A stretch of 64,000 nt of DNA from the NCBI RefSeq assembly GCF_009914755.1, contig NC_060925.1; one strand, written 5' to 3'. Under the pieces are notes generated by a model. That model had not been told where the DNA came from. It was given only the letters and a program-made list of their open reading frames with translations, and did no database searches. Below are positions 1-17,780 of the stretch, piece by piece. Every line of letters begins with the position of its first letter. Within the stretch, counting starts at the first letter, position 1. The position numbers were made by a program, and so were the translations under genes. This stretch comes from the human T2T-CHM13v2.0 reference genome, Homo sapiens.

Positions 1-3000
1 TTGACCGTAGCCAGAGGACTGTCCTGAGCGAGACTCTCGGTGACCTAAGCCAGAAGAGTGACCGGAGCCAGACTCATATGGGCCACGGCTGGAAGACCAC
101 CCTGAGCCAGACCCATATGGGCCGTAGCTGGAAGACTGCCCAGAACCAGACCCATGTCGGCCACGGCTAGGGCTAGGAGACTGGCCAGATCCAGACCCAT
201 GTTGGCCGTGGCCCAAAGACTGACGGGAGCCAGACCCATGCTGACCATAGCTGGAAGATGAACCTGAGCTAGATCCGTGTTGTTCACCCCTAGATGACTG
301 TCCTGACCTAGAGCCGTGTTGTTCGTAGCTGGAGGAGTGACCTGAGCCAGATCCATGCTGAGTGTAACCAGAGAACTGCCATGAGCTAGACTCATGGTGA
401 CCAAATCCAGAAGACTGACCTGAGCCAGACCCATGTCGGCCACTGCTGGAAGACCAACCGGAGCCAGACCCATGTTGGCCGTAGCTGGAAGAGTGCCCGG
501 AACCGGACCCATGTCGGCCGCGACTAGGAGACTGGCCAGATCCAGAGCCCTGTTGGCCATAGCTAGAAGACTGACTTGAGCCAGAGCCATGCTGACCGTG
601 GCTGGAAGACTGACCTGTGCTAGATCCCTCCTGGTCAAAGGTTGATGACTGTCCTGATGTAGAACCATGCTGTCCTTGGCTACAGAAGTGCCCTGAGCCA
701 CTACCATGCTGACTGTAAGCAGAGGAATGTCCTGAGCCAGACTCATGTTGACCAAAGACAGAAGAGTGACCCGAGCGAGACTCATATGGGCCACGGCTGG
801 AAGAACGACCTGAGCCAGACCCATGTTGGCCGTGGCTGGAGGAGTGCCCCAAACCGGACCCATGTCGGCCGCGGCTAGGGGACTGGCCAGATCCAGACCC
901 TTGTCGGCTGTGGCCCGAAGACTGACGGGAGCCAGACCCATGCTGACCATAGCGGGAAGACGAACCTGAGCTAGATCCGTGTCGTTCACCCCTAGATGAC
1001 TGTCCTGATCTAGAGCCGTGTTGTCCGTAGCCAGAGGAGTGACCTGAGCCAGACCCATGCTGACTGTAACTAGAGGACTGCCCTGAGCTAGACTCGTGGT
1101 GACCAAAGCCAGAAGACTCGCCTAAGCCAGACCCATGTTGGCCACTGGTGGAAGACCGACCGGAGCCAGACCCATGTCGGCCGTAGCTGGGAGACTGCCT
1201 TGACCCAGACCCACGCTGGCCGTGGCCTGGAGACTGGCCAGATCCAGAGCCCTGTCGGCCATAGCCAGAAGACTGACTTGAGCCAGAGCCATGCTGACCG
1301 TGGCTGGAAGACTGACCTGAGCTAGCTCCATGTTGGCCACAGCTCGATGACTGTCCTGATGTAGAACCATGTTGCCCATGGGTAGAGGAATGACCTGAGC
1401 TAGATCCATGTTGACCGTAGCCAGAGGACTGTCCTGAGTGAGACTCTCGGTGACCTAAGCCAGAAGAGTGACCGGAGCCAGACTCATATGGGCCACGGCT
1501 GGAAGACCACCCTGAGCCAGACCCATATGGGCCGTAGCTGGAAGACTGCCCAGAACCAGACCCATGTCGGCCACGGCTAGGGCTAGGAGACTGGCCAGAT
1601 CCAGACCCATGTTGGCCGTGGCCCAAAGACTGACGGGAGCCAGACCCATGCTGACCATAGCTGGAAGATGAACCTGAGCTAGATCCGTGTCGTTCACCCC
1701 TAGATGACTGTCCTGACCTAGAGCCGTGTTGTTCGTAGCTGGAGGAGTGACCTGAGCCAGATCCATGCTGAGTGTAACCAGAGGACTGCCATGAGCTAGA
1801 CTCGTGGTGACCAAATCCAGAAGACTGACCTGAGCCAGACCCATGTCGGCCACTGCTGGAAGACCAACCGGAGCCAGACCCATGTTGGCCGTAGCTGGAA
1901 GAGTGCCCGGAACCGGACCCATGTCGGCCGCGACTAGGAGACTGGCCAGATCCAGAGCCCTGTTGGCCATAGCTAGAAGACTGACTTGAGCCAGAGCCAT
2001 GCTGACCGTGGCTGGAAGACTGACCTGTGCTAGATCCCTCCTGGTCAAAGGTTGATGACTGTCCTGATGTAGAACCATGCTGTCCTTGGCTACAGAAGTG
2101 CCCTGAGCCACTACCATGCTGACTGTAAGCAGAGGAATGTCCTGAGCCAGACTCATGTTGACCAAAGACAGAAGAGTGACCCGAGCGAGACTCATATGGG
2201 CCACGGCTGGAAGAACGACCTGAGCCAGACCCATGTTGGCCGTGGCTGGAGGAGTGCCCCGAACCGGACCCATGTCGGCCGCGGTTAGGGGACTGGCCAG
2301 ATCCAGACCCTTGTCGGCCGTGGCCCGAAGACTGACGGGAGCCAGACCCATGCTGACCATAGCGGGAAGACGAACCTGAGCTAGATCCGTGTCGTTCACC
2401 CCTAGATGACTGTCCTGATCTAGAGCCGTGTTGTCCGTAGCCAGAGGAGTGACCTGAGCCAGACCCATGCTGACTGTAACTAGAGGACTGCCCTGAGCTA
2501 GACTCGTGGTGACCAAAGCCAGAAGACTCGCCTAAGCCAGACCCATGTTGGCCACTGCTGGAAGACCGACCGGAGCCAGACCCATGTCGGCCGTAGCTGG
2601 GAGACTGCCTTGACCCAGACCCACGCTGGCCGTGGCCTGGAGACTGGCCAGATCCAGAGCCCTGTCGGCCATAGCCAGAAGACTGACTTGAGCCAGAGCC
2701 ATGCTGACCGTGGCTGGAAGACTGACCTGAGCTAGCTCCATGTTGGCCACAGCTCGATGACTGTCCTGATGTAGAACCATGTTGCCCATGGGTAGAGGAA
2801 TGACCTGAGCTAGATCCATGTTGACCGTAGCCAGAGGACTGTCCTGAGCGAGACTCTCGGTGACCTAAGCCAGAAGAGTGACCGGAGCCAGACTCATATG
2901 GGCCACGGCTGGAAGACCACCCTGAGCCAGACCCATATGGGCTGTAGCTGGAAGACTGCCCAGAACCAGACCCATGTTGGCCACGGCTAGGGCTAGGAGA

Positions 3001-6000
3001 CTGGCCAGATCCAGACCCATGTTGGCCGTGGCCCAAAGACTGACGGGAGCCAGACCCATGCTGACCATAGCTGGAAGATGAACCTGAGCTAGATCCGTGT
3101 CGTTCACCCCTAGATGACTGTCCTGACCTAGAGCCGTGTTGTTCGTAGCTGGAGGAGTGACCTGAGCCAGATCCATGCTGAGTGTAACCAGAGGACTGCC
3201 ATGAGCTAGACTCGTGGTGACCAAATCCAGAAGACTGACCTGAGCCAGACCCATGTCGGCCACTGCTGGAAGACCAACCGGAGCCAGACCCATGTTGGCC
3301 GTAGCTGGAAGAGTGCCCGGAACAGGACCCATGTCGGCCGCGACTAGGAGACTGGCCAGATCCAGAGCCCTGTTGGCCATAGCTAGAAGACTGACTTGAG
3401 CCAGAGCCATGCTGACCGTGGCTGGAAGACTGACCTGAGCTAGCTCCATGTTGGCCACAGCTCGATGACTGTCCTGATGCAGAACCATGTTGCCCATGGG
3501 TAGAGGAATGACCTGAGCTAGATCCATGTTGACCGTAGCCAGAGGACAGTCCTGAGCGAGACTCTCGGTGACCTAAGCCAGAAGAGTGACCGGAGCCAGA
3601 CTCATATGGGCCACAGCTGGAAGACCACCCTGAGCCAGACCCATATGGGCTGTAGCTGGAAGACTGCCCAGAACCAGACCCATGTCGGCCACGGCTAGGG
3701 CTAGGAGACTGGCCAGATCCAGACCCATGTTGGCCGTGGCCCAAAGACTGACGGGAGTCAGACCCATGCTGACCATAGCTGGAAGATGAACCTGAGCTAG
3801 ATCCGTGTTGTTCACCCCTAGATGACTGTCCTGACCTAGAGCCGTGTTGTTCGTAGCTGGAGGAGTGACCTGAGCCAGATCCATGCTGAGTGTAACCAGA
3901 GGACTGCCATGAGCTAGACTCATGGTGACCAAATCCAGAAGACTGACCTGAGCCAGACCCATGTCGGCCACTGCTGGAAGACCAACCGGAGCCAGACCCA
4001 TGTTGGCCGTAGCTGGAAGAGTGCCCGGAACCGGACCCATGTCGGCCGCGACTAGGAGACTGGCCAGATCCAGAGCCCTGTTGGCCATAGCTAGAAGACT
4101 GACTTGAGCCAGAGCCATGCTGACCGTGGCTGGAAGACTGACCTGTGCTAGATCCCTCCTGGTCAAAGGTTGATGACTGTCCTGATGTAGAACCATGCTG
4201 TCCTTGGCTACAGAAGTGCCCTGAGCCACTACCATGCTGACTGTAAGCAGAGGAATGTCCTGAGCCAGACTCATGTTGACCAAAGACAGAAGAGTGACCC
4301 GAGCGAGACTCATATGGGCCACGGCTGGAAGAACGACCTGAGCCAGACCCATGTTGGCCGTGGCTGGAGGAGTGCCCCAAACCGGACCCATGTCGGCCGC
4401 GGCTAGGGGACTGGCCAGATCCAGACCCTTGTCGGCCGTGGCCCGAAGACTGACGGGAGCCAGACCCATGCTGACCATAGCGGGAAGACGAACCTGAGCT
4501 AGATCCGTGTCGTTCACCCCTAGATGACTGTCCTGATCTAGAGCCGTGTTGTCCGTAGCCAGAGGAGTGACCTGAGCCAGACCCATGCTGACTGTAACTA
4601 GAGGACTGCCCTGAGCTAGACTCGTGGTGACCAAAGCCAGAAGACTCGCCTAAGCCAGACCCATGTTGGCCACTGCTGGAAGACCGACCGGAGCCAGACC
4701 CGTGTCGGCCGTAGCTGGGAGACTGCCTTGACCCAGACCCACGCTGGCCGTGGCCTGGAGACTGGCCAGATCCAGAGCCCTGTCGGCCATAGCCAGAAGA
4801 CTGACTTGAGCCAGAGCCATGCTGACCGTGGCTGGAAGACTGACCTGAGCTAGCTCCATGTTGGCCACAGCTGGATGACTGTCCTGATGTAGAACCATGT
4901 TGCCCATGGGTAGAGGAATGACCTGAGCTAGATCCATGTTGACCGTAGCCAGAGGACTGTCCTGAGCGAGACTCTCGGTGACCTAAGCCAGAAGAGTGAC
5001 CGGAGCCAGACTCATATGGGCCACGGCTGGAAGACCACCCTGAGCCAGACCCATATGGGCTGTAGCTGGAAGACTGCCCAGAACCAGACCCATGTCGGCC
5101 ACGGCTAGGGCTAGGAGACTGGCCAGATCCAGACCCATGTTGGCCGTGGCCCAAAGACTGACGGGAGCCAGACCCATGCTGACCATAGCTGGAAGATGAA
5201 CCTGAGCTAGATCCGTGTCGTTCACCCCTAGATGACTGTCCTGACCTAGAGCCGTGTTGTTCGTAGCTGGAGGAGTGACCTGAGCCAGATCCATGCTGAG
5301 TGTAACCAGAGGACTGCCATGAGCTAGACTCGTGGTGACCAAATCCAGAAGACTGACCTGAGCCAGACCCATGTCGGCCACTGCTGGAAGACCAACCGGA
5401 GCCAGACCCATGTTGGCCGTAGCTGGAAGAGTGCCCGGAACAGGACCCATGTCGGCCGCGACTAGGAGACTGGCCAGATCCAGAGCCCTGTTGGCCATAG
5501 CTAGAAGACTGACTTGAGCCAGAGCCATGCTGACCGTGGCTGGAAGACTGACCTGAGCTAGCTCCATGTTGGCCACAGCTCGATGACTGTCCTGATGCAG
5601 AACCATGTTGCCCATGGGTAGAGGAATGACCTGAGCTAGATCCATGTTGACCGTAGCCAGAGGACAGTCCTGAGCGAGACTCTCGGTGACCTAAGCCAGA
5701 AGAGTGACCGGAGCCAGACTCATATGGGCCACAGCTGGAAGACCACCCTGAGCCAGACCCATATGGGCTGTAGCTGGAAGACTGCCCAGAACCAGACCCA
5801 TGTCGGCCACGGCTAGGGCTAGGAGACTGGCCAGATCCAGACCCATGTTGGCCGTGGCCCAAAGACTGACGGGAGCCAGACCCATGCTGACCATAGCTGG
5901 AAGATGAACCTGAGCTAGATCCGTGTTGTTCACCCCTAGATGACTGTCCTGACCTAGAGCCGTGTTGTTCGTAGCTGGAGGAGTGACCTGAGCCAGATCC

Positions 6001-9000
6001 ATGCTGAGTGTAACCAGAGGACTGCCATGAGCTAGACTCATGGTGACCAAATCCAGAAGACTGACCTGAGCCAGACCCATGTCGGCCACTGCTGGAAGAC
6101 CAACCGGAGCCAGACCCATGTTGGCCGTAGCTGGAAGAGTGCCCGGAACCGGACCCATGTCGGCCGCGACTAGGAGACTGGCCAGATCCAGAGCCCTGTT
6201 GGCCATAGCTAGAAGACTGACTTGAGCCAGAGCCATGCTGACCGTGGCTGGAAGACTGACCTGTGCTAGATCCCTCCTGGTCAAAGGTTGATGACTGTCC
6301 TGATGTAGAACCATGCTGTCCTTGGCTACAGAAGTGCCCTGAGCCACTACCATGCTGACTGTAAGCAGAGGAATGTCCTGAGCCAGACTCATGTTGACCA
6401 AAGACAGAAGAGTGACCCGAGCGAGACTCATATGGGCCACGGCTGGAAGAACGACCTGAGCCAGACCCATGTTGGCCGTGGCTGGAGGAGTGCCCCAAAC
6501 CGGACCCATGTCGGCCGCGGCTAGGGGACTGGCCAGATCCAGACCCTTGTCGGCCGTGGCCCGAAGACTGACGGGAGCCAGACCCATGCTGACCATAGCG
6601 GGAAGACGAACCTGAGCTAGATCCGTGTCGTTCACCCCTAGATGACTGTCCTGATCTAGAGCCGTGTTGTCCGTAGCCAGAGGAGTGACCTGAGCCAGAC
6701 CCATGCTGACTGTAACTAGAGGACTGCCCTGAGCTAGACTCGTGGTGACCAAAGCCAGAAGACTCGCCTAAGCCAGACCCATGTTGGCCACTGGTGGAAG
6801 ACCGACCGGAGCCAGACCCATGTCGGCCGTAGCTGGGAGACTGCCTTGACCCAGACCCACGCTGGCCGTGGCCTGGAGACTGGCCAGATCCAGAGCCCTG
6901 TCGGCCATAGCCAGAAGACTGACTTGAGCCAGAGCCATGCTGACCGTGGCTGGAAGACTGACCTGAGCTAGCTCCATGTTGGCCACAGCTCGATGACTGT
7001 CCTGATGTAGAACCATGTTGCCCATGGGTAGAGGAATGACCTGAGCTAGATCCATGTTGACCGTAGCCAGAGGACTGTCCTGAGCGAGACTCTCGGTGAC
7101 CTAAGCCAGAAGAGTGACCGGAGCCAGACTCATATGGGCCACGGCTGGAAGACCACCCTGAGCCAGACCCATATGGGCCGTAGCTGGAAGACTGCCCAGA
7201 ACCAGACCCATGTCGGCCACGGCTAGGGCTAGGAGACTGGCCAGATCCAGACCCATGTTGGCCGTGGCCCAAAGACTGACGGGAGCCAGACCCATGCTGA
7301 CCATAGCTGGAAGATGAACCTGAGCTAGATCCGTGTCGTTCACCCCTAGATGACTGTCCTGACCTAGAGCCGTGTTGTTCGTAGCTGGAGGAGTGACCTG
7401 AGCCAGATCCATGCTGAGTGTAACCAGAGGACTGCCATGAGCTAGACTCGTGGTGACCAAATCCAGAAGACTGACCTGAGCCAGACCCATGTCGGCCACT
7501 GCTGGAAGACCAACCGGAGCCAGACCCATGTTGGCCGTAGCTGGAAGAGTGCCCGGAACCGGACCCATGTCGGCCGCGACTAGGAGACTGGCCAGATCCA
7601 GAGCCCTGTTGGCCATAGCTAGAAGACTGACTTGAGCCAGAGCCATGCTGACCGTGGCTGGAAGACTGACCTGTGCTAGATCCCTCCTGGTCAAAGGTTG
7701 ATGACTGTCCTGATGTAGAACCATGCTGTCCTTGGCTACAGAAGTGCCCTGAGCCACTACCATGCTGACTGTAAGCAGAGGAATGTCCTGAGCCAGACTC
7801 ATGTTGACCAAAGACAGAAGAGTGACCCGAGCGAGACTCATATGGGCCACGGCTGGAAGAACGACCTGAGCCAGACCCATGTTGGCCGTGGCTGGAGGAG
7901 TGCCCCGAACCGGACCCATGTCGGCCGCGGCTAGGGGACTGGCCAGATCCAGACCCTTGTCGGCCGTGGCCCGAAGACTGACGGGAGCCAGACCCATGCT
8001 GACCATAGCGGGAAGACGAACCTGAGCTAGATCCGTGTCGTTCACCCCTAGATGACTGTCCTGATCTAGAGCCGTGTTGTCCGTAGCCAGAGGAGTGACC
8101 TGAGCCAGACCCATGCTGACTGTAACTAGAGGACTGCCCTGAGCTAGACTCGTGGTGACCAAAGCCAGAAGACTCGCCTAAGCCAGACCCATGTTGGCCA
8201 CTGCTGGAAGACCGACCGGAGCCAGACCCGTGTCGGCCGTAGCTGGGAGACTGCCTTGACCCAGACCCACGCTGGCCGTGGCCTGGAGACTGGCCAGATC
8301 CAGAGCCCTGTCGGCCATAGCCAGAAGACTGACTTGAGCCAGAGCCATGCTGACCGTGGCTGGAAGACTGACCTGAGCTAGCTCCATGTTGGCCACAGCT
8401 CGATGACTGTCCTGATGTAGAACCATGTTGCCCATGGGTAGAGGAATGACCTGAGCTAGATCCATGTTGACCGTAGCCAGAGGACTGTCCTGAGCGAGAC
8501 TCTCGGTGACCTAAGCCAGAAGAGTGACCGGAGCCAGACTCATATGGGCCACGGCTGGAAGACCACCCTGAGCCAGACCCATATGGGCTGTAGCTGGAAG
8601 ACTGCCCAGAACCAGACCCATGTCGGCCACGGCTAGGGCTAGGAGACTGGCCAGATCCAGACCCATGTTGGCCGTGGCCCAAAGACTGACGGGAGCCAGA
8701 CCCATGCTGACCATAGCTGGAAGATGAACCTGAGCTAGATCCGTGTCGTTCACCCCTAGATGACTGTCCTGACCTAGAGCCGTGTTGTTCGTAGCTGGAG
8801 GAGTGACCTGAGCCAGATCCATGCTGAGTGTAACCAGAGGACTGCCATGAGCTAGACTCGTGGTGACCAAATCCAGAAGACTGACCTGAGCCAGACCCAT
8901 GTCGGCCACTGCTGGAAGACCAACCGGAGCCAGACCCATGTTGGCCGTAGCTGGAAGAGTGCCCGGAACAGGACCCATGTCGGCCGCGACTAGGAGACTG

Positions 9001-12000
9001 GCCAGATCCAGAGCCCTGTTGGCCATAGCTAGAAGACTGACTTGAGCCAGAGCCATGCTGACCGTGGCTGGAAGACTGACCTGAGCTAGCTCCATGTTGG
9101 CCACAGCTCGATGACTGTCGTGATGCAGAACCATGTTGCCCATGGGTAGAGGAATGACCTGAGCTAGATCCATGTTGACCGTAGCCAGAGGACAGTCCTG
9201 AGCGAGACTCTCGGTGACCTAAGCCAGAAGAGTGACCGGAGCCAGACTCATATGGGCCACAGCTGGAAGACCACCCTGAGCCAGACCCATATGGGCTGTA
9301 GCTGGAAGACTGCCCAGAACCAGACCCATGTCGGCCACGGCTAGGGCTAGGAGACTGGCCAGATCCAGACCCATGTTGGCCGTGGCCCAAAGACTGACGG
9401 GAGCCAGACCCATGCTGACCATAGCTGGAAGATGAACCTGAGCTAGATCCGTGTTGTTCACCCCTAGATGACTGTCCTGACCTAGAGCCGTGTTGTTCGT
9501 AGCTGGAGGAGTGACCTGAGCCAGATCCATGCTGAGTGTAACCAGAGGACTGCCATGAGCTAGACTCATGGTGACCAAATCCAGAAGACTGACCTGAGCC
9601 AGACCCATGTCGGCCACTGCTGGAAGACCAACCGGAGCCAGACCCATGTTGGCCGTAGCTGGAAGAGTGCCCGGAACCGGACCCATGTCGGCCGCGACTA
9701 GGAGACTGGCCAGATCCAGAGCCCTGTTGGCCATAGCTAGAAGACTGACTTGAGCCAGAGCCATGCTGACCGTGGCTGGAAGACTGACCTGTGCTAGATC
9801 CCTCCTGGTCAAAGGTTGATGACTGTCCTGATGTAGAACCATGCTGTCCTTGGCTACAGAAGTGCCCTGAGCCACTACCATGCTGACTGTAAGCAGAGGA
9901 ATGTCCTGAGCCAGACTCATGTTGACCAAAGACAGAAGAGTGACCCGAGCGAGACTCATATGGGCCACGGCTGGAAGAACGACCTGAGCCAGACCCATGT
10001 TGGCCGTGGCTGGAGGAGTGCCCCAAACCGGACCCATGTCGGCCGCGGCTAGGGGACTGGCCAGATCCAGACCCTTGTCGGCCGTGGCCCGAAGACTGAC
10101 GGGAGCCAGACCCATGCTGACCATAGCGGGAAGACGAACCTGAGCTAGATCCGTGTCGTTCACCCCTAGATGACTGTCCTGATCTAGAGCCGTGTTGTCC
10201 GTAGCCAGAGGAGTGACCTGAGCCAGACCCATGCTGACTGTAACTAGAGGACTGCCCTGAGCTAGACTCGTGGTGACCAAAGCCAGAAGACTCGCCTAAG
10301 CCAGACCCATGTTGGCCACTGCTGGAAGACCGACCGGAGCCAGACCCATGTCGGCCGTAGCTGGGAGACTGCCTTGACCCAGACCCACGCTGGCCGTGGC
10401 CTGGAGACTGGCCAGATCCAGAGCCCTGTCGGCCATAGCCAGAAGACTGACTTGAGCCAGAGCCATGCTGACCGTGGCTGGAAGACTGACCTGAGCTAGC
10501 TCCATGTTGGCCACAGCTCGATGACTGTCCTGATGTAGAACCATGTTGCCCATGGGTAGAGGAATGACCTGAGCTAGATCCATGTTGACCGTAGCCAGAG
10601 GACTGTCCTGAGCGAGACTCTCGGTGACCTAAGCCAGAAGAGTGACCGGAGCCAGACTCATATGGGCCACGGCTGGAAGACCACCCTGAGCCAGACCCAT
10701 ATGGGCCGTAGCTGGAAGACTGCCCAGAACCAGACCCATGTCGGCCACGGCTAGGGCTAGGAGACTGGCCAGATCCAGACCCATGTTGGCCGTGGCCCAA
10801 AGACTGACGGGAGCCAGACCCATGCTGACCATAGCTGGAAGATGAACCTGAGCTAGATCCGTGTCGTTCACCCCTAGATGACTGTCCTGACCTAGAGCCG
10901 TGTTGTTCGTAGCTGGAGGAGTGACCTGAGCCAGATCCATGCTGAGTGTAACCAGAGGACTGCCATGAGCTAGACTCGTGGTGACCAAATCCAGAAGACT
11001 GACCTGAGCCAGACCCATGTCGGCCACTGCTGGAAGACCAACCGGAGCCAGACCCATGTTGGCCGTAGCTGGAAGAGTGCCCGGAACCGGACCCATGTCG
11101 GCCGCGACTAGGAGACTGGCCAGATCCAGAGCCCTGTTGGCCATAGCTAGAAGACTGACTTGAGCCAGAGCCATGCTGACCGTGGCTGGAAGACTGACCT
11201 GTGCTAGATCCCTCCTGGTCAAAGGTTGATGACTGTCCTGATGTAGAACCATGCTGTCCTTGGCTACAGAAGTGCCCTGAGCCACTACCATGCTGACTGT
11301 AAGCAGAGGAATGTCCTGAGCCAGACTCATGTTGACCAAAGACAGAAGAGTGACCCGAGCGAGACTCATATGGGCCACGGCTGGAAGAACGACCTGAGCC
11401 AGACCCATGTTGGCCGTGGCTGGAGGAGTGCCCCGAACCGGACCCATGTCGGCCGCGGCTAGGGGACTGGCCAGATCCAGACCCTTGTCGGCCGTGGCCC
11501 GAAGACTGACGGGAGCCAGACCCATGCTGACCATAGCGGGAAGACGAACCTGAGCTAGATCCGTGTCGTTCACCCCTAGATGACTGTCCTGATCTAGAGC
11601 CGTGTTGTCCGTAGCCAGAGGAGTGACCTGAGCCAGACCCATGCTGACTGTAACTAGAGGACTGCCCTGAGCTAGACTCGTGGTGACCAAAGCCAGAAGA
11701 CTCGCCTAAGCCAGACCCATGTTGGCCACTGCTGGAAGACCGACCGGAGCCAGACCCATGTCGGCCGTAGCTGGGAGACTGCCTTGACCCAGACCCACGC
11801 TGGCTGTGGCCTGGAGACTGGCCAGATCCAGAGCCCTGTCGGCCATAGCCAGAAGACTGACTTGAGCCAGAGCCATGCTGACCGTGGCTGGAAGACTGAC
11901 CTGAGCTAGCTCCATGTTGGCCACAGCTCGATGACTGTCCTGATGTAGAACCGTGTTGCCCATGGGTAGAGGAATGACCTGAGCTAGATCCATGTTGACC

Positions 12001-15000
12001 GTAGCCAGAGGACTGTCCTGAGCGAGACTCTCGGTGACCTAAGCCAGAAGAGTGACCGGAGCCAGACTCATATGGGCCACGGCTTGAAGACCACCCTGAG
12101 CCAGACCTATATGGGCCATAGCTGGAAGACTGCCCGGAACCAGACCCATGTCGGCCACGGCTAGGGCTAGGAGACTGGCCAGATCCAGACCCATGTTGGC
12201 CGTGGCCCAAAGACTGACGGGAGCCAGACCCATGCTGACCATAGCTGGAAGACGAACCTGAGCTAGATCCATGTTGTTCGCTCCTAGATGACTGTCCTGA
12301 CCTAGAGCCGTGTTGTTCGTAGCTGGAGGAGTGACCTGAGCCAGATCCATGCTGAGTGTAACCAGAGGACTGCCCTGAGCTAGACTTGTGACCAAAGCCA
12401 GAAGACTGGCCTGAGCCAGACCCATGTCGGCCACTGCTGGAAGACCGACCGGAGCCAGACCCATGTCGGCCATAGCTGGGAGACTGCCCTGACCCAGACC
12501 CACGCTGGCCGTGGCCTGGAGACTGGCCAGATCCAGAGCCATGTCGGCCGCGGCCCGAAGCGTGATGGGAGGCAGACTCATGCTGACCATAGCTGGAAGA
12601 TTGACCTGAGCTAGAGTCATGTTGGCCGGAGCTTGATGACTGCCCTGACGTAGATCCATGTCGTCCCTGGCTAGAGAAGTGACCTGAGGCAGAACCATGC
12701 TGACTATAGCCCTGTCCTGAGCCAGACTCGTGTTGCCCAAAACCAGAAGCCTGGCCTGAGCCAGACTCATAATGGCCACAGCTGGAAGAACAAGTTGTGC
12801 CAGACCCGTGTTGGCCGTGGCTGGAGGAGTGCCCTGAACTGGACCCATGTCGGACACGGCTAGGAGAGTGGCCAGATCCAGACCCTTGTCGGCCGTGGCC
12901 CGAAGATTGATGGGAGCCCGACCCATGCTGACCATAGCTGGAAGACAAACCTGAGCTAGATCCATGTTGTTCACTCCTAGATGACTGTCCTGACCTAGAG
13001 CCGTGTTTTCTGTAGCCGGAGGAGTGACTTGAGCCAGATCCATGCTGACTGTAACCAGAGGACTGCCCTGAGCCAGACTTGTGACCAAAGCCGGAAGACT
13101 GGCCTGAGACAGACCCATGTGGGCCATTGCTTGAAGACCAACCGGAGCCAGACCCATGTTGGCCGTAGCTGGAAGAGTGCCCAAAATCGGACCCATGTTG
13201 GCCGCGACTAGGAGACTGGCCAGATCCAGAGCCCTGTTGGCCATAGCGAGAAGACTGACTTGAGCCAGAGCCATGCTGACCGTGGCTGGAAGACTGACCT
13301 GAGGTAGCTCCATGTTGGCCACAGCTCGATGACTGTCCTGATGTAGAACCATGTTGCCCATGGGTAGAGGAATGACCTGAGCTAGATCCGTGTTGACCGT
13401 AGCCAGAGGACTGTCCTGAGCGAGACTCTTGGTGACCTAAGCCAGAAGAGTGACCGGAGCCAGACTCATATGGGCCACGGCTTGAAGACCTCCCTGAGCC
13501 ATACCCATGTGGGCCATAGCTGGAAGACTGCCTGGAACCAGACTCATGTCGGCCACGGCTAGGGCTAGGAGACTGGCCAGATCCAGACCCATGTCGGCTG
13601 TGTCCCAAAGATTGACGGGAGCCAGACCCATGCTGACCATAGCTGGAAGATGAACCTGCACTAGATCCTTGTCGTTCACCCCTAGATGACTGTCCTGACC
13701 TAGAGCCGTGTTGTCTGTGGCCGGAGGAGTGACCTGAGCCAGATCCATGCTGAGTGTAACCAGAGGAATGCCCTGAGCTAGACTCGTGGTGACCAAAGCC
13801 AGAAGAGTAGCCTGAACCAGACACATATGGGCCACTGCTGGAAGATCGACCAAAGCCAGTCCCATGTTGGCCGGAGCTGGGAGACTGCCCTGACCCAGAC
13901 CCACGCTGGTCGTGGCCTGGAGACTGGCCAGATCCAGAGCTGTGTTGGCCGCGGCCTGAAGAGTGACGGGAGGCAGACTCATGCTGACCATAGCTGGAAG
14001 ACTGACGTGAGCTGGAGCCATGTTGGCCAGAGCTTGATGCCTGCCCTGACGTAGATCCATGTCGTCCCTGGCTAGAGGAGTGACCTGAGCCAGAACCATG
14101 CTTACTATAGCCAGAGGACTGTCCTGAGCCAGACTCGTGTTGCCCAAAGCCAGAAGTCTGGCCTGAGCCAGACTCATAATGGCCACGGCTGTAAGAGTAA
14201 CTTGATCCAGACCCGTGTTGGCCGTGGCTGGAGGAGTGCCCCGAACCGGACCCATGTCGGACGTGGCTAGGAGACTGGCGAGATCCAGACCCTTGTCGGC
14301 CGTGGCCCAAAGACTGACGGGAACCAGACCCATGCTGACCATAGCTGGAAGACGAACCTGAGCTAGATCTTTGTCTTTCACCCCTAGATGACTGTCCTGA
14401 CCTAGAGCCGTGTTGTCCGTAGCCAGAGGAGTGACCTGAGCCAGATCCATGCTGACTGTAACCAGAGGACTGCCCTGAGCTAGACTTGTGTTGACTAAAG
14501 CCAGAAGACTGGCCTGAGCCAGACCCATGTGTGTCATTGCTGGAAGACTGTCCGGAGCCAGAGCCGTGTTGGCCATAGTTGGGAGACTGCCCTGACCCAG
14601 ACCCACATTGGCCGCGGCCTGAAGACTGGTGAGAGTCGGAGTTTTGCTCACCATAGCTGGAAGACTGACCTGAGTAGGAGTTATGTTGGCCAGAAAAGTC
14701 TCTTTGAAAACTCAGTCTTCTGGATATGGATTCAGTCCCAGGTTTAAGACTTCCTCTGACGTTTCTGGAATAGGAATCATTCTCTCCTGCACTCCAACTT
14801 GAATGACTAAAAGAGGATTCTTGCCGTTTGTTCTCCTCTTTTTCAGTTTCTTCTTGTTCCTCTTGGTGCTGGTGAGTGTCATCTCTCAGCTTTGACCCTG
14901 AAACTTGGCAGTAATCTTTGCCAATGATTTTATTATGAGCCTGAACCAGCTTGAATATCATCAGAAGATACTCAGTAAAATCCACTTTCTTGTTATGGTC

Positions 15001-15051
15001 TCGATCCAGACTTTGCAAGATGATATCCACAGTATCTGGATCGTTTGGATT
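1..15051 (-). CDS. HRNR: Hornerin exon 3 (second EF-hand, spacer, Gly/Ser/His/Gln-rich repeats); runs off the left edge of the window
   Basis: Acceptor CTTATACAG|AAT at 15051. Translation NPNDPDTVDIILQSLDRDHNKKVDFTEYLLMIFKLVQAHNKIIGKDYCQVSGSKLRDD... then GQHGSGSGQSS-type repeats. The same frame still reads ...GYGQ at bases 12-1. The ORF track lists no ORF in this frame, as expected if there is no stop before the edge. Confidence 0.97.
45..14680 (-). repeat. HRNR coding tandem array: seven 1410-bp units, three 708-bp units and two diverged 5' units, built from ~117-bp (39-aa) subunits
   Basis: The landmark gtgacctaagccagaagagtgacc recurs, with shadow-ORF stops at 45, 1455, 2865, 3573, 4983, 5691, 7101, 8511, 9219, 10629, 12039 and 13437 (spacings 1410, 1410, 708, 1410, 708, 1410, 1410, 708, 1410, 1410, 1398). 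Confidence 0.95.
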
Positions 15052-15419
15052 CTGTATAAGAGAAAGGTACAAAGGGTAGCTCTGTTAGTATGGACAATAC
15101 ATCTGGCTAACGAACTGAAGGAAAGATGTGAAAATGTAAATGTTTGGGTTATTTATATGGAACTCATTCACACAGTCCTTTAGGCTGCATTTCTGTATCC
15201 TGAGCAGAAAGAGAAAAAGGAATATGGAATGAATAATGTGGTGGGAAACAGCTAGAATAGGATGCAACTGGAAGATGAAAGGAAACAAGAGGGCTGATTA
15301 TTTTTGGTAAAGAATGGGTCAAATATGAATGATTAGCTAATTTATAAGTAATATGTTTTTATACCTACATTAATTATATCAACTTTATTTATCCAATTAA
15401 ATTAACTAGCTACTTAATT

Positions 15420-16270
15420 TACTCACTGAACAAAGATTTATTATTTTACTAGTTGCCTACCATTATGTCATATGAGAGTATAAAGAAGTGAACAAGTTTG
15501 CTTCCTGAAAAAAAATGGAATTTAAAGTTTAGTTGGCCAGATATACAAACTTAAAATTATAATTTATTGTGGTAAGGTTTCTACAAGAGTACATCAGAGA
15601 GGAAACATTGGGGGTCCTAGAAAGGTTAATGAGAGGAAATGATGCCTTTTGAAGGATGGATTAGGATTAGCCAAATGAAGAAGTAAGAAGAGAAAGAGAA
15701 GGGGAAAAGATTGTTCTAGGCAGAGGGAATTATATGAACAAAGGGCTAGAGGTGAGAGAAGTTATGGAGCATTCAAGGAACTGAAGGAAATTCAGGATTG
15801 CTAGATTTAGAGTTTGAAGAGTCAAGAAATGTGGATAGAGAGACAAATAGGGACTAGATTATGACTTTTAAGTTATGTTAAGGAACTTTGTACTTCATTT
15901 TAAGAGCAATTGGGAACTATTGAAGGATTTTTAGCTGAGGAGTGAAATGATTATATTTGCATCCAATGCTGAGAGTAGAAGTAGTAGGTGGCCTGAACCA
16001 GAGGACTAATAATAGTGATGAAGAGAAATGGGTTGTTTTGAGAGATTATTGATGAGTTAGATGGAGGTTAGAAGGTAGTGGTGTCTGCTGAGAGAGAGAC
16101 AATAAAAAATGACACCAGATTTTTGCTTTGGGCAAAAAGATGAAGGAAAAAGGTTAGTGGGGAAGATTATGAGATTCATAGCTGACACACTGAATATCTG
16201 ACATCTGATATCTGAATATCATATCTGAAATCCACAGAAATCCAAATTTAAGGAATTGAAACTCAGGAGT
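15420..16270 (-). mobile_element. Degraded L2 LINE in HRNR intron 2
   Basis: Resembles antisense L2 (ctcactgaacaaagatttatt..., aaggaactttgtacttcattttaagagcaattgggaactattgaagg). Confidence 0.6.
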
Positions 16271-16676
16271 CTGATATAAGGTCCCAAATATCTAAGCTAT
16301 CAAATCTAGACCTGACAGTTTTAAGGTGGTGGACACATTCTTTTGTGATTCAGGAGTAAATGCCAATTTCCTGAACTCAGAAATCTACTTCACAGTTTTT
16401 CTGAGGACTGTCTGGGTTTGTAGGAATTAGTCACTTAGATAGGGCATTATTTAACCTGTGGGTTTTGTTTGTTGTTTAGTAAGGTCACTTCCGTTAGTTA
16501 TGCTATGGAAACCATCACGGATCTGCTTTTGACCTTATCTCAAACTTTTACCAAACCCTGTTCTCTCTCACCAAGTAAGGACAATCCTCTAGGATGTTTG
16601 ACATATGTGACAAGAAGGTGGAAAGGGATAAAGAAGAAAATTCCTGCATAACTCCATCCTGGCGTGGAGTTCTTAC

Positions 16677-16814
16677 CTTCAGAATTTGATGAAACTCATT
16701 TTCCAGAAGTTCTTTCAGCTCTGCCTTGTTCAACGTATCATACTCCCCATGCTGGGTGGCATATTGGTAGAAAACATCGATGACAGTGATGACGCCTTGT
16801 AGGAGTTTAGGCAT
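16677..16814 (-). CDS. HRNR: Hornerin exon 2 coding part, 46 codons, first (S100-type) EF-hand
   Basis: MPKLLQGVITVIDVFYQYATQHGEYDTLNKAELKELLENEFHQILK followed by donor AAG|GTAAGA at 16677/16676. Acceptor TTTAG| at 16838, so the whole exon is 16677-16838. A 138-bp coding exon 2 is typical of S100-fused-type (SFTP) genes. Confidence 0.97.
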
Positions 16815-17698
16815 TTTTTTTTTGCAAGTTTGAGTAACCTAAAGGGAGGAAAAAGAGAGACCAACCCCTTACTATTCTTATTTCTTGTTTAAACACATAA
16901 ATAGTTCTAATTATTTATAATAATTGTTCAGAATTAGTCATGATTAAATTCATTCTGTTGTAATCAAGAACCAATTCAGAGTTGAATGACTTGTTCAAGC
17001 CATGTAGCAAGAGAGTGATGAAATTAGGAATATAATCCATAGGTCTTATTTCCATTCCTGAATGAATGTAGGAAAAATGACTTTCTGTTTTTGGCTTCCT
17101 GCCATTACCAGGGATAATATTAGCTTTGTTCTGGAGCTGTAGAAGTCCTGAGTGTTCCACTTCATCTGCTTCCTCTTTCTAGGTTCGAAGCATACTGTGG
17201 GCATAGGTCCATCATCTACATGACATGCCTTACTCAACCTAAGGAGCATCAATGGCTGAACTGAACTCTCAAGACTTCTAGGTCAGAGAAAATAGACAAT
17301 GTGAGCAAAGCCAACAAGCCTAGGTGATATGAAGCTAAGGGTAACTGCTATTAGATCCAGCTTCTGTTCTCATTCTCCAAGCAGGAAGTGACCCTCAGAC
17401 CTTATTACACAATAGAGAGGAAAAGCTCAGTTGTAAAGAAGGCAACCTGCCTGTGGATAATTAGAACCCCATGATATCCATGTTATAAGGGAAGCGACCT
17501 CAAAGAAAGGAGATAATATACATAGTCCTAGTCTTTGTTTCATTTTTCTTTTCAGTAAATTTAAACTTATACCAAAGTTCCCCAGAGTATACTAAAAAGA
17601 AGCCTTGTATCTAGTGCCTCTTTGCCTTAGAGCACATCCTGGACTTTCATAATTTATAGCCCTAAGTACCCTTGAGCGGAGTTGAACTGCTCACTTAC

Positions 17699-17752
17699 CT
17701 AGCTCACCAGAGGAACAAGTAGGGTAGAGACAGAAACAGCTTTCAGGGTGCT
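17699..17752 (-). other. HRNR: HRNR non-coding exon 1 (TSS approximate)
   Basis: Donor ...CTGGTGAGCTAG|GTAAGT at 17699, about 80 bp downstream of a TATA box; fits the three-exon SFTP layout. Confidence 0.85.
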
Positions 17753-17772: not shown

Positions 17773-17780
17773 TTTTTATA
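17773..17780 (-). promoter_or_regulatory. HRNR TATA box (TATAAAAA)
   Basis: CTATAAAAAGGCCACTCT on the minus strand, about 25-30 bp upstream of the inferred exon 1 start. Confidence 0.85.

What the first reader, a model, noticed from the sequence alone, without database searches (positions are those of the whole stretch)
1..16814. Giant in-frame HRNR allele: at least 5,063 aa, nearly double the reference hornerin
Seen: 46 codons in exon 2 plus 5,017 codons from 15051 to base 1 with the frame preserved (all unit lengths are multiples of 3) and the terminal domain not yet reached. Established, from memory: reference hornerin is about 2,850 aa with roughly six ~470-aa units. Inference: this haplotype carries a large coding VNTR expansion that short-read assemblies would collapse. 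It would change the dose of repeat-derived cornified-envelope and antimicrobial peptides per transcript.
Basis: partly seen in the sequence, partly recalled or inferred. Interest (0 to 1): 0.72.

Follow-up and report, generated by a model that had tools for sequence, protein, structure and literature searches.

The report
Long hornerin allele, 6,848 residues
The complete (T2T-CHM13) human genome carries a skin-protein gene, hornerin, whose repeat exon stays in frame for 6,848 amino acids instead of the textbook 2,850; this is a long version of an already published length polymorphism, and it would likely give more copies of the repeat-derived peptides per protein chain.

Summary
Observation confirmed and extended. 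The minus-strand frame has 0 stops in 5,017 codons (15051 to 1), plus 46 codons in exon 2. Read into the adjacent DNA, it ends at window -5357: 6,848 aa, about 673 kDa, 2.4 times the 2,850-aa reference. The excess of 11,994 nt equals seven 1,410-nt units plus three 708-nt half-units, which carry a chimeric subunit. Young units differ by 0.4%. Frame preservation is built in, because every repeat offset found is a multiple of 3; the variants show no detectable selection.

It is not new. Lu et al. 2023 describe this exonic VNTR (7.8 kb in GRCh38, mean 13.5 kb in long-read assemblies, CHM13 among the haplotypes used) and its expression associations. Chiu et al. 2026 translated HRNR alleles in silico. 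So GRCh38 is short, a mean allele implies about 4,750 aa, and this one (about 19.8 kb) is long.

The RefSeq model here (three exact unit-length 'introns', start at Met77) is likely a repeat-alignment artefact. Full-length protein and any dose effect are untested. One open lead: array length may underlie the reported East Asian HRNR sweep.

The parts
17774..17780 (-). TATA box (TATAAAA) upstream of HRNR exon 1
   Evidence: read directly from sequence
17699..17750 (-). HRNR non-coding exon 1 (3' end at a GTAAGT donor; 5' end approximate)
   Evidence: start inferred from TATA spacing and from the GRCh38 gene span
16677..16838 (-). HRNR exon 2; ATG at 16814, 46 codons, S100 domain
   Evidence: Pfam S_100 PF01023 64.3 bits, cut-off 22; acceptor 15 of 15 pyrimidines
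15052..16676 (-). intron 2 (GT...AG), treated as 5' UTR in the RefSeq model of the hub table
1..15051 (-). HRNR exon 3 open frame, 5,017 codons in the window; continues to the stop at -5357 and a 3' UTR of about 1,000 nt
14503..15051 (-). second EF-hand and unique spacer (aa 47-229)
   Evidence: weak Pfam EF-hand_7, 16.8 bits, below the cut-off of 30
12046..14502 (-). old, diverged part of the Gly/Ser/His/Gln array (aa 230-1048), about 82-97% identical to its best match elsewhere in the array
1..12045 (-). young array of 351/357-nt subunits e-f-g-h in 1,410-nt units; with the part outside the window, 10 complete units, 1 truncated terminal unit and 3 half-units; mean 0.40% difference between complete units
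8518..9225 (-). 708-nt half-unit 1 (chimeric subunit i at 9225-8875, then h)
4990..5697 (-). 708-nt half-unit 2 (i at 5697-5347, then h)
2872..3579 (-). 708-nt half-unit 3 (i at 3579-3229, then h)
9081..11198 (-). RefSeq 'intron' of 2,118 nt, likely a repeat-alignment gap and not an intron
   Evidence: 113-nt identical flanks; acceptor 6 of 15 pyrimidines
5553..7670 (-). RefSeq 'intron' of 2,118 nt, likely a repeat-alignment gap
3435..4142 (-). RefSeq 'intron' of 708 nt, likely a repeat-alignment gap

Best explanation
This is the hornerin (HRNR) gene of T2T-CHM13, whose exon 3 is one open frame giving 6,848 codons with exon 2; it is a long allele of the published HRNR coding VNTR, likely built by unequal crossing-over and likely translated unspliced into a precursor that would be cut into more repeat peptides than the reference form. 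Shown: the frame, exon borders, unit order, the 11,994-nt excess over a 2,850-aa allele, single copy in the genome. Inferred: (1) one 702-nt deletion between subunits e and g made the chimeric half-unit, which was then copied inside 2,118- and 3,528-nt blocks; (2) the frame survives because all homologous positions lie a multiple of 3 apart, so crossing-over cannot shift it; (3) by the published biology of hornerin, the S100-headed precursor is proteolysed in upper epidermis into cationic disordered fragments, so a longer array gives more fragments per chain (odds about 0.5 that this changes the amount in skin); (4) as DNA, the longer array is statistically tied to lower FLG-AS1 and FLG expression (published association, mechanism conjectural).
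For: 0 stops in 5,017 codons and a natural end with unique C-terminal tail, stop and poly(A) signals. 6,848 - 2,850 = 3,998 aa = 11,994 nt = 7 x 1,410 + 3 x 708 exactly. Independent checks of that offset: the gene span here minus the GRCh38 span of 12,112 nt listed in the Lu supplement is 11,995-12,001 for four trial start sites, and reference peptide 2656-2677 (HR1-18) sits at 6654-6675. Subunit i matches e at 32 diagnostic sites up to base 142 and g at 22 sites from base 196; all three copies share three further differences. Duplicated blocks of 5.2-5.8 kb at 0.3% divergence. The unique 5' part of exon 3 matches only itself and FLG2 (73%) in the genome, 2 matches from 2 candidates. VNTR 7.8 kb versus mean 13.5 kb, CHM13 among the haplotypes. 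HRNR among the longest and most polymorphic translated loci. Fragmentation and antimicrobial activity of hornerin peptides.
Against: No reads, transcripts or protein data could be examined. The RefSeq model in the hub table splices out 4,944 nt and starts at Met77 (5,124 aa); NCBI's evidence for it was not visible. No sign of purifying selection on the young units: 17 non-synonymous, 5 synonymous, 0 nonsense among 22 variants, p = 0.49-0.81 against neutral, so extra length need not matter.
Confidence: 0.88

Rival explanations
1. The DNA is right but the transcript is spliced as in RefSeq NM_001422216.1 (three exitrons of 708, 2,118 and 2,118 nt), giving 5,124 aa from Met77 or 5,200 aa from the true start.
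For: All three gaps can be placed at GT...AG, the donor CAG|GTCAGT fits the consensus well, and the spliced frame is open. The model carries an NM_ accession (hub table).
Against: Each gap is an exact sum of repeat units and has 113 nt of identical sequence at both ends, with one GT-AG placement. The same donor 9-mer occurs 40 times in exon 3; the acceptors have 6 of 15 pyrimidines against 15 and 12 of 15 for the two real introns. Each gap removes precisely the e-derived part of a chimeric subunit, leaving 2,850 + 5 x 470 = 5,200 aa, which is what aligning a half-unit-free allele would give. The model also lacks exon 1, retains intron 2 and has 26 ATGs ahead of its start.
Confidence: 0.06
2. 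The array is over-expanded by the assembly and the real allele is shorter.
For: Units are 99.6% identical, two pairs differ by 0 and others by 1 of 1,410 nt. 19.8 kb is well above the 13.5-kb mean; the published range is in a figure that I could not see.
Against: The longest exact repeat in the 20-kb array is 1,973 nt, far shorter than the long reads used for this assembly (recalled), so unit order is resolvable. There is no frameshift in 20.4 kb. Long alleles recur in other long-read assemblies.
Confidence: 0.04
3. The allele is real, but its length matters, if at all, as DNA (added CTCF-like sites acting on FLG-AS1 and FLG) or not at all; the protein dose in skin does not change.
For: VNTR length is associated with lower FLG-AS1 (slopes -0.52 to -0.71) and FLG (-0.48 to -0.64) in the 32 of 122 supplement rows seen; the authors conjecture added CTCF sites. 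Variants in young units look neutral. A recalled CTCF-like pattern recurs twice per ~705 nt.
Against: The pattern matches have two mismatches and the window total is not above chance (56 against 44.5 +/- 7.4; 11 of 100 shuffles reach it). This reading does not exclude a protein effect; it concerns consequence, not identity.
Confidence: 0.4

Closest known systems
HRNR exon 3 VNTR, GRCh38 chr1:152,213,243-152,221,044 (Lu et al., Genome Res 2023, PMC10234305; bioRxiv 10.1101/2022.03.17.484784)
   Same: Same locus; their example motif occurs 7 times in this allele; CHM13 is one of their haplotypes.
   Different: They report DNA length, motif counts and eQTLs. In the section and passages I read there is no protein length, unit map or mention of half-units for CHM13.
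Tandem repeat catalogue of Chiu et al. (Nat Commun 2026, PMC12855859; first author recalled)
   Same: HRNR alleles from long-read assemblies were translated in silico and named among the longest and most polymorphic.
   Different: No allele lengths in the text; HRNR not found in the 5 and 2 supplement files held; Fig. 2b not visible.
Reference hornerin, 2,850 aa, with 39 > 351 > ~700 > ~1,404-nt higher-order repeat (Romero et al. 2018, PMC6280949; Latendorf et al. 2019, PMC6399351, first author recalled)
   Same: Same hierarchy (39- and 351-nt periods; 1,410-nt units), same S100 head and C-terminal numbering after a 3,998-aa shift.
   Different: About 14 unit-lengths instead of 6; three tertiary-size half-units break the 1,410-nt period.
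FLG repeat copy-number variation (10-12 filaggrin units)
   Same: Neighbouring S100 fused-type gene with in-frame coding repeat variation; this haplotype has 11 units between 12 linkers, 4,385 aa.
   Different: FLG varies by about 20% with a reported dose effect on atopic dermatitis; HRNR varies at least 2.4-fold and no protein-level dose effect turned up in my searches.

Membership tests
S100 fused-type protein family | Three exons: non-coding exon 1, S100 start in exon 2, giant repeat exon 3 | tested here: met
S100 fused-type protein family | N-terminal S100/EF-hand domain | tested here: met
   Pfam S_100 64.3 bits over cut-off 22; second EF-hand only 16.8 bits, under its cut-off, when scanned without exon 2
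S100 fused-type protein family | Location in the epidermal differentiation complex between RPTN and FLG | tested here: met
   hub gene table; FLG and FLG2 frames read from the same chromosome
HRNR (hornerin) gene | Gly/Ser/His/Gln array with 39, 351 and ~1,404-nt hierarchy and hornerin peptide sequences | tested here: met
HRNR (hornerin) gene | Single-copy locus, not a paralogue | tested here: met
   only self and FLG2 (73%); the tool's counts are lower bounds
HRNR (hornerin) gene | Expression and proteolytic processing of the full-length product in epidermis | not testable with these tools
   no RNA or protein data; literature concerns the reference numbering
Published HRNR coding VNTR | Length differs from GRCh38 by whole repeat units, in frame | tested here: met
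   11,994 nt = 7 x 1,410 + 3 x 708, by arithmetic; GRCh38 sequence not aligned
Published HRNR coding VNTR | Allele falls within the range of other human haplotypes | not testable with these tools
   only the mean (13.5 kb) is in the text read; figures are not held
Spliceosomal introns/exitrons (RefSeq model gaps) | Polypyrimidine tract and unique junction | tested here: not met
   6 of 15 pyrimidines; junction slides over 113 identical nt

The most novel reading that the evidence does not exclude
HRNR array length is the hidden variant behind the East Asian 'Huxian' sweep: the swept haplogroup lowers HRNR read counts by over 50% and raises FLG-AS1, the mirror image of what a longer array does. 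The sweep would then have favoured a short hornerin, the HRNR 'expression' effect would be largely a transcript-length effect, and long alleles such as this 6,848-aa one would mark non-swept haplotypes. CHM13 fits (11 FLG units, full-length FLG2), but it is one haplotype, and GRCh38 is short with a FLG one unit shorter than CHM13's, so short alleles are not confined to the sweep.
Probability: 0.3. Interest if true: 0.6.

Novelty: already known. Interest (0 to 1): 0.24.

Why it matters
Work on hornerin numbers residues on a 2,850-aa protein, while the published mean array length implies about 4,750 aa and this reference genome encodes 6,848 aa. Short-read variant calls, read-count 'expression' and proteomic coverage at HRNR are affected by that. 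The T2T annotation lists the gene as LOC124905679 with a doubtful structure, and one transcriptome paper treated it as a novel gene. The polymorphism itself is published, so the gain here is a unit map, a corrected gene model and a testable link to the reported sweep.

Tried and rejected
Protein database search with exon 3 residues 1-160 among proteins of 2,759-8,780 aa: 189 candidates, none at E <= 0.001; no orthologue or other allele could be compared. Genome search with the repeat (window 1-300) returned only FLG2-region matches at 66-70%. Selection test on young units: neutral-like, no support for purifying selection. CTCF-like pattern scan: not above chance over the window. HRNR allele sizes were sought in supplements of PMC12855859 and PMC11213036 (no hit) and PMC10234305 (eQTL tables only; file 1 not searchable). 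Garg et al. preprint main text has no HRNR mention. Pfam has no model for the 470-aa unit. No structure prediction was run, as the array is a low-complexity disordered region. Rejected: in-frame stop between 15051 and 1 (none), a second HRNR copy, a coding frame on the plus strand (212-398 stops per frame).
Full report
Observation. The hub table places the window on T2T-CHM13 chr1, and the genome tool gives the same place. On the minus strand exon 2 codes 46 residues from the ATG at 16814 to a GT donor at 16676 (one search was one base off and was corrected). Exon 3 starts at 15051 behind a pyrimidine-rich acceptor. From there to base 1 the frame has 0 stops in 5,017 codons; the other five frames have 23 to 398. 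I fetched the adjacent 9 kb (600-nt overlap identical, no N) and read on. The frame ends at TGA, window -5355..-5357, after a unique tail ending CYFYQ, with poly(A) signals about 970-990 nt further on. The full product is 6,848 aa, 672.6 kDa.

Identity. Exon 2 is an S100 domain (Pfam 64.3 bits). Exon 1 ends at 17699 behind a TATA box at 17780. The array within the window is 36% Ser, 26% Gly, 10% His and 10% Gln, with 39- and 351-nt periods. The unique 5' part of exon 3 matches only itself and FLG2 in the genome. This is HRNR, single copy.

Anatomy. Residues 230-1048 are an older, diverged array. From residue 1049 (window 12045) the array consists of four subunit classes e, f, g, h (351, 351, 351, 357 nt) forming 1,410-nt units, plus a fifth class i. 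The order is efgh efgh ih efgh efgh ih efgh ih efgh efgh efgh efgh efgh ef and a final g-like piece: 10 complete units, one truncated terminal unit and three 708-nt half-units. Subunit i matches e at 32 diagnostic sites up to base 142 and g at 22 sites from base 196, and all three copies share three further differences. One 702-nt deletion within the identical stretch 143-195, later duplicated, explains this (inference). Complete units differ by 0-10 of 1,410 nt, mean 0.40%; blocks of 5.2-5.8 kb recur at offsets 2,820, 3,528 and 5,646 with about 0.3% divergence. 15 of 22 distinct variants involve CpG sites.

Comparison with the reference. Reference hornerin is 2,850 aa (PMC6399351, passages) with six longest units (PMC6280949, abstract, introduction and part of methods). 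The difference of 3,998 aa is 11,994 nt, exactly 7 x 1,410 + 3 x 708. The GRCh38 gene span in the Lu supplement is 12,112 nt; the span here is 11,995-12,001 nt longer for four trial start sites. Reference peptide HR1-18 (2656-2677) lies at 6654-6675. I could not align GRCh38 itself.

Is the open frame surprising? Not much. All 40 strongest self-match offsets are multiples of 3, so unequal crossing-over keeps the frame. Among 22 variants in young subunits 17 are non-synonymous, 5 synonymous and 0 nonsense; the neutral expectation is about 66-70%, 26-30% and 4.4%, p = 0.49-0.81, and no stop in 22 has probability 0.37. There is no detectable selection, and the test is weak.

Assembly. The longest exact repeat inside the array is 1,973 nt, well under the read lengths used for this assembly (recalled). 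Reads could not be inspected. I put over-expansion at 0.04.

The RefSeq model. NM_001422216.1 in the hub table removes 708, 2,118 and 2,118 nt. Each gap has 113 identical nt at both ends and one GT-AG placement. The donor 9-mer occurs 40 times in the exon, and the acceptors have 6 of 15 pyrimidines against 15 and 12 for the real introns. Each gap removes the e-derived part of one chimeric subunit; what remains is 2,850 + 5 x 470 = 5,200 aa once the missing 76 N-terminal residues are counted. The model starts at Met77, retains intron 2 and has 26 ATGs upstream. This looks like an allele without half-units aligned onto this one (inference; NCBI's evidence not seen).

What is known. Lu et al. (bioRxiv 10.1101/2022.03.17.484784, section 7 part 1 and passages; PMC10234305 supplement rows) describe this VNTR: 7.8 kb in GRCh38, mean 13.5 kb in assemblies, with 35 HGSVC and 47 HPRC assemblies and CHM13 used for folding predictions. 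Length is positively associated with HRNR read counts (slopes 0.46-0.73) and negatively with FLG-AS1 and FLG in the 32 of 122 rows I saw; they note that a longer exon is expected to raise read counts. The tandem repeat catalogue (PMC12855859 and its preprint PMC11213036, passages) translated coding repeat alleles and names HRNR among the longest and most polymorphic. Three other papers mention HRNR or hornerin in passing (passages), two of them as structurally polymorphic; a 2008 survey lists the 7.8-kb array (passages). On these numbers this allele's VNTR is about 19.8 kb and a mean allele implies about 4,750 aa. Nine paper searches were run; in the passages I then read there was no figure of 6,848 aa and no half-unit map. 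Figures, one supplement file and subscription papers were not visible and may hold both.

How it works. From published work on the reference form, hornerin is fragmented in stratum corneum, and His/Arg-rich fragments kill Pseudomonas at acid pH. This allele holds 6 exact and 11 near copies of HR1-18, so each chain would yield more such fragments. Whether the amount in skin rises is untested; I put it near 0.5. A DNA-level effect on neighbours is a published association with a conjectured CTCF mechanism; my scan with a recalled pattern found weak periodic matches but no excess over chance.

Most novel reading. Eaaswarkhanth et al. (PMC5174745, passages and section 8) proposed HRNR as the target of an East Asian sweep; the swept haplogroup lowers HRNR expression by over 50%, raises FLG-AS1, and in CHB carries 12 FLG units, and its Asian haplotypes carry a FLG2 loss-of-function variant. 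Those directions are what a shorter array gives. CHM13 has 11 FLG units and a 2,391-aa FLG2 frame (that this is full length is recalled), so this long allele is not on that haplogroup. Against: it is one haplotype, and GRCh38 is short although its FLG span (23,029 nt) is about one unit below CHM13's (24,049 nt, hub table). A search for Huxian with HRNR gave 4 papers; I read one and saw only listings of the other three. Probability 0.3.

Verdict. Real, correctly counted, larger than stated, and a long allele of a published coding VNTR in a public reference genome. Interest 0.24.

Noticed in passing
window 3435-4142, 5553-7670, 9081-11198, 14961-16814: The RefSeq T2T model LOC124905679 / NM_001422216.1 appears mis-built: repeat-length gaps called introns, intron 2 retained, start at Met77, exon 1 missing. 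One paper (PMC10594789) lists it among novel T2T genes differentially expressed in autism brain.
   Followed up: yes
L010-L011 (G000:C1:151438278-151451310): FLG on this haplotype is intact, 4,385 aa, 12 linkers and 11 full filaggrin units.
   Followed up: partly
L012-L013 (G000:C1:151487162-151494230): FLG2 frame is open to 2,391 aa, with no premature stop near the C-terminus.
   Followed up: partly
window 1-14600: The array is a GC- and CpG-rich island in AT-rich surroundings (GC 58%, CpG observed/expected 0.40-0.43, against 36% and 0.09-0.12 in intron 2 and upstream DNA); 15 of 22 unit variants are at CpG sites.
   Followed up: no
window 1-14400: Weak CTCF-like 12-mers in opposite orientation recur twice per ~705 nt; total count in the window is not above chance.
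   Followed up: partly
window 1-16814, + strand: HRNR lies inside the span of the antisense lncRNA CCDST (FLG-AS1, synonym recalled). The strongest HRNR length-eQTLs seen are in thyroid, nerve, testis and fat, so unstranded reads from the antisense pre-RNA over the array may contribute to 'HRNR expression' there.
   Followed up: no
young array, subunit g (e.g. 9583-9933): All 10 complete g subunits are identical over 351 nt, while e, f and h have 8, 6 and 7 variable sites.
   Followed up: no
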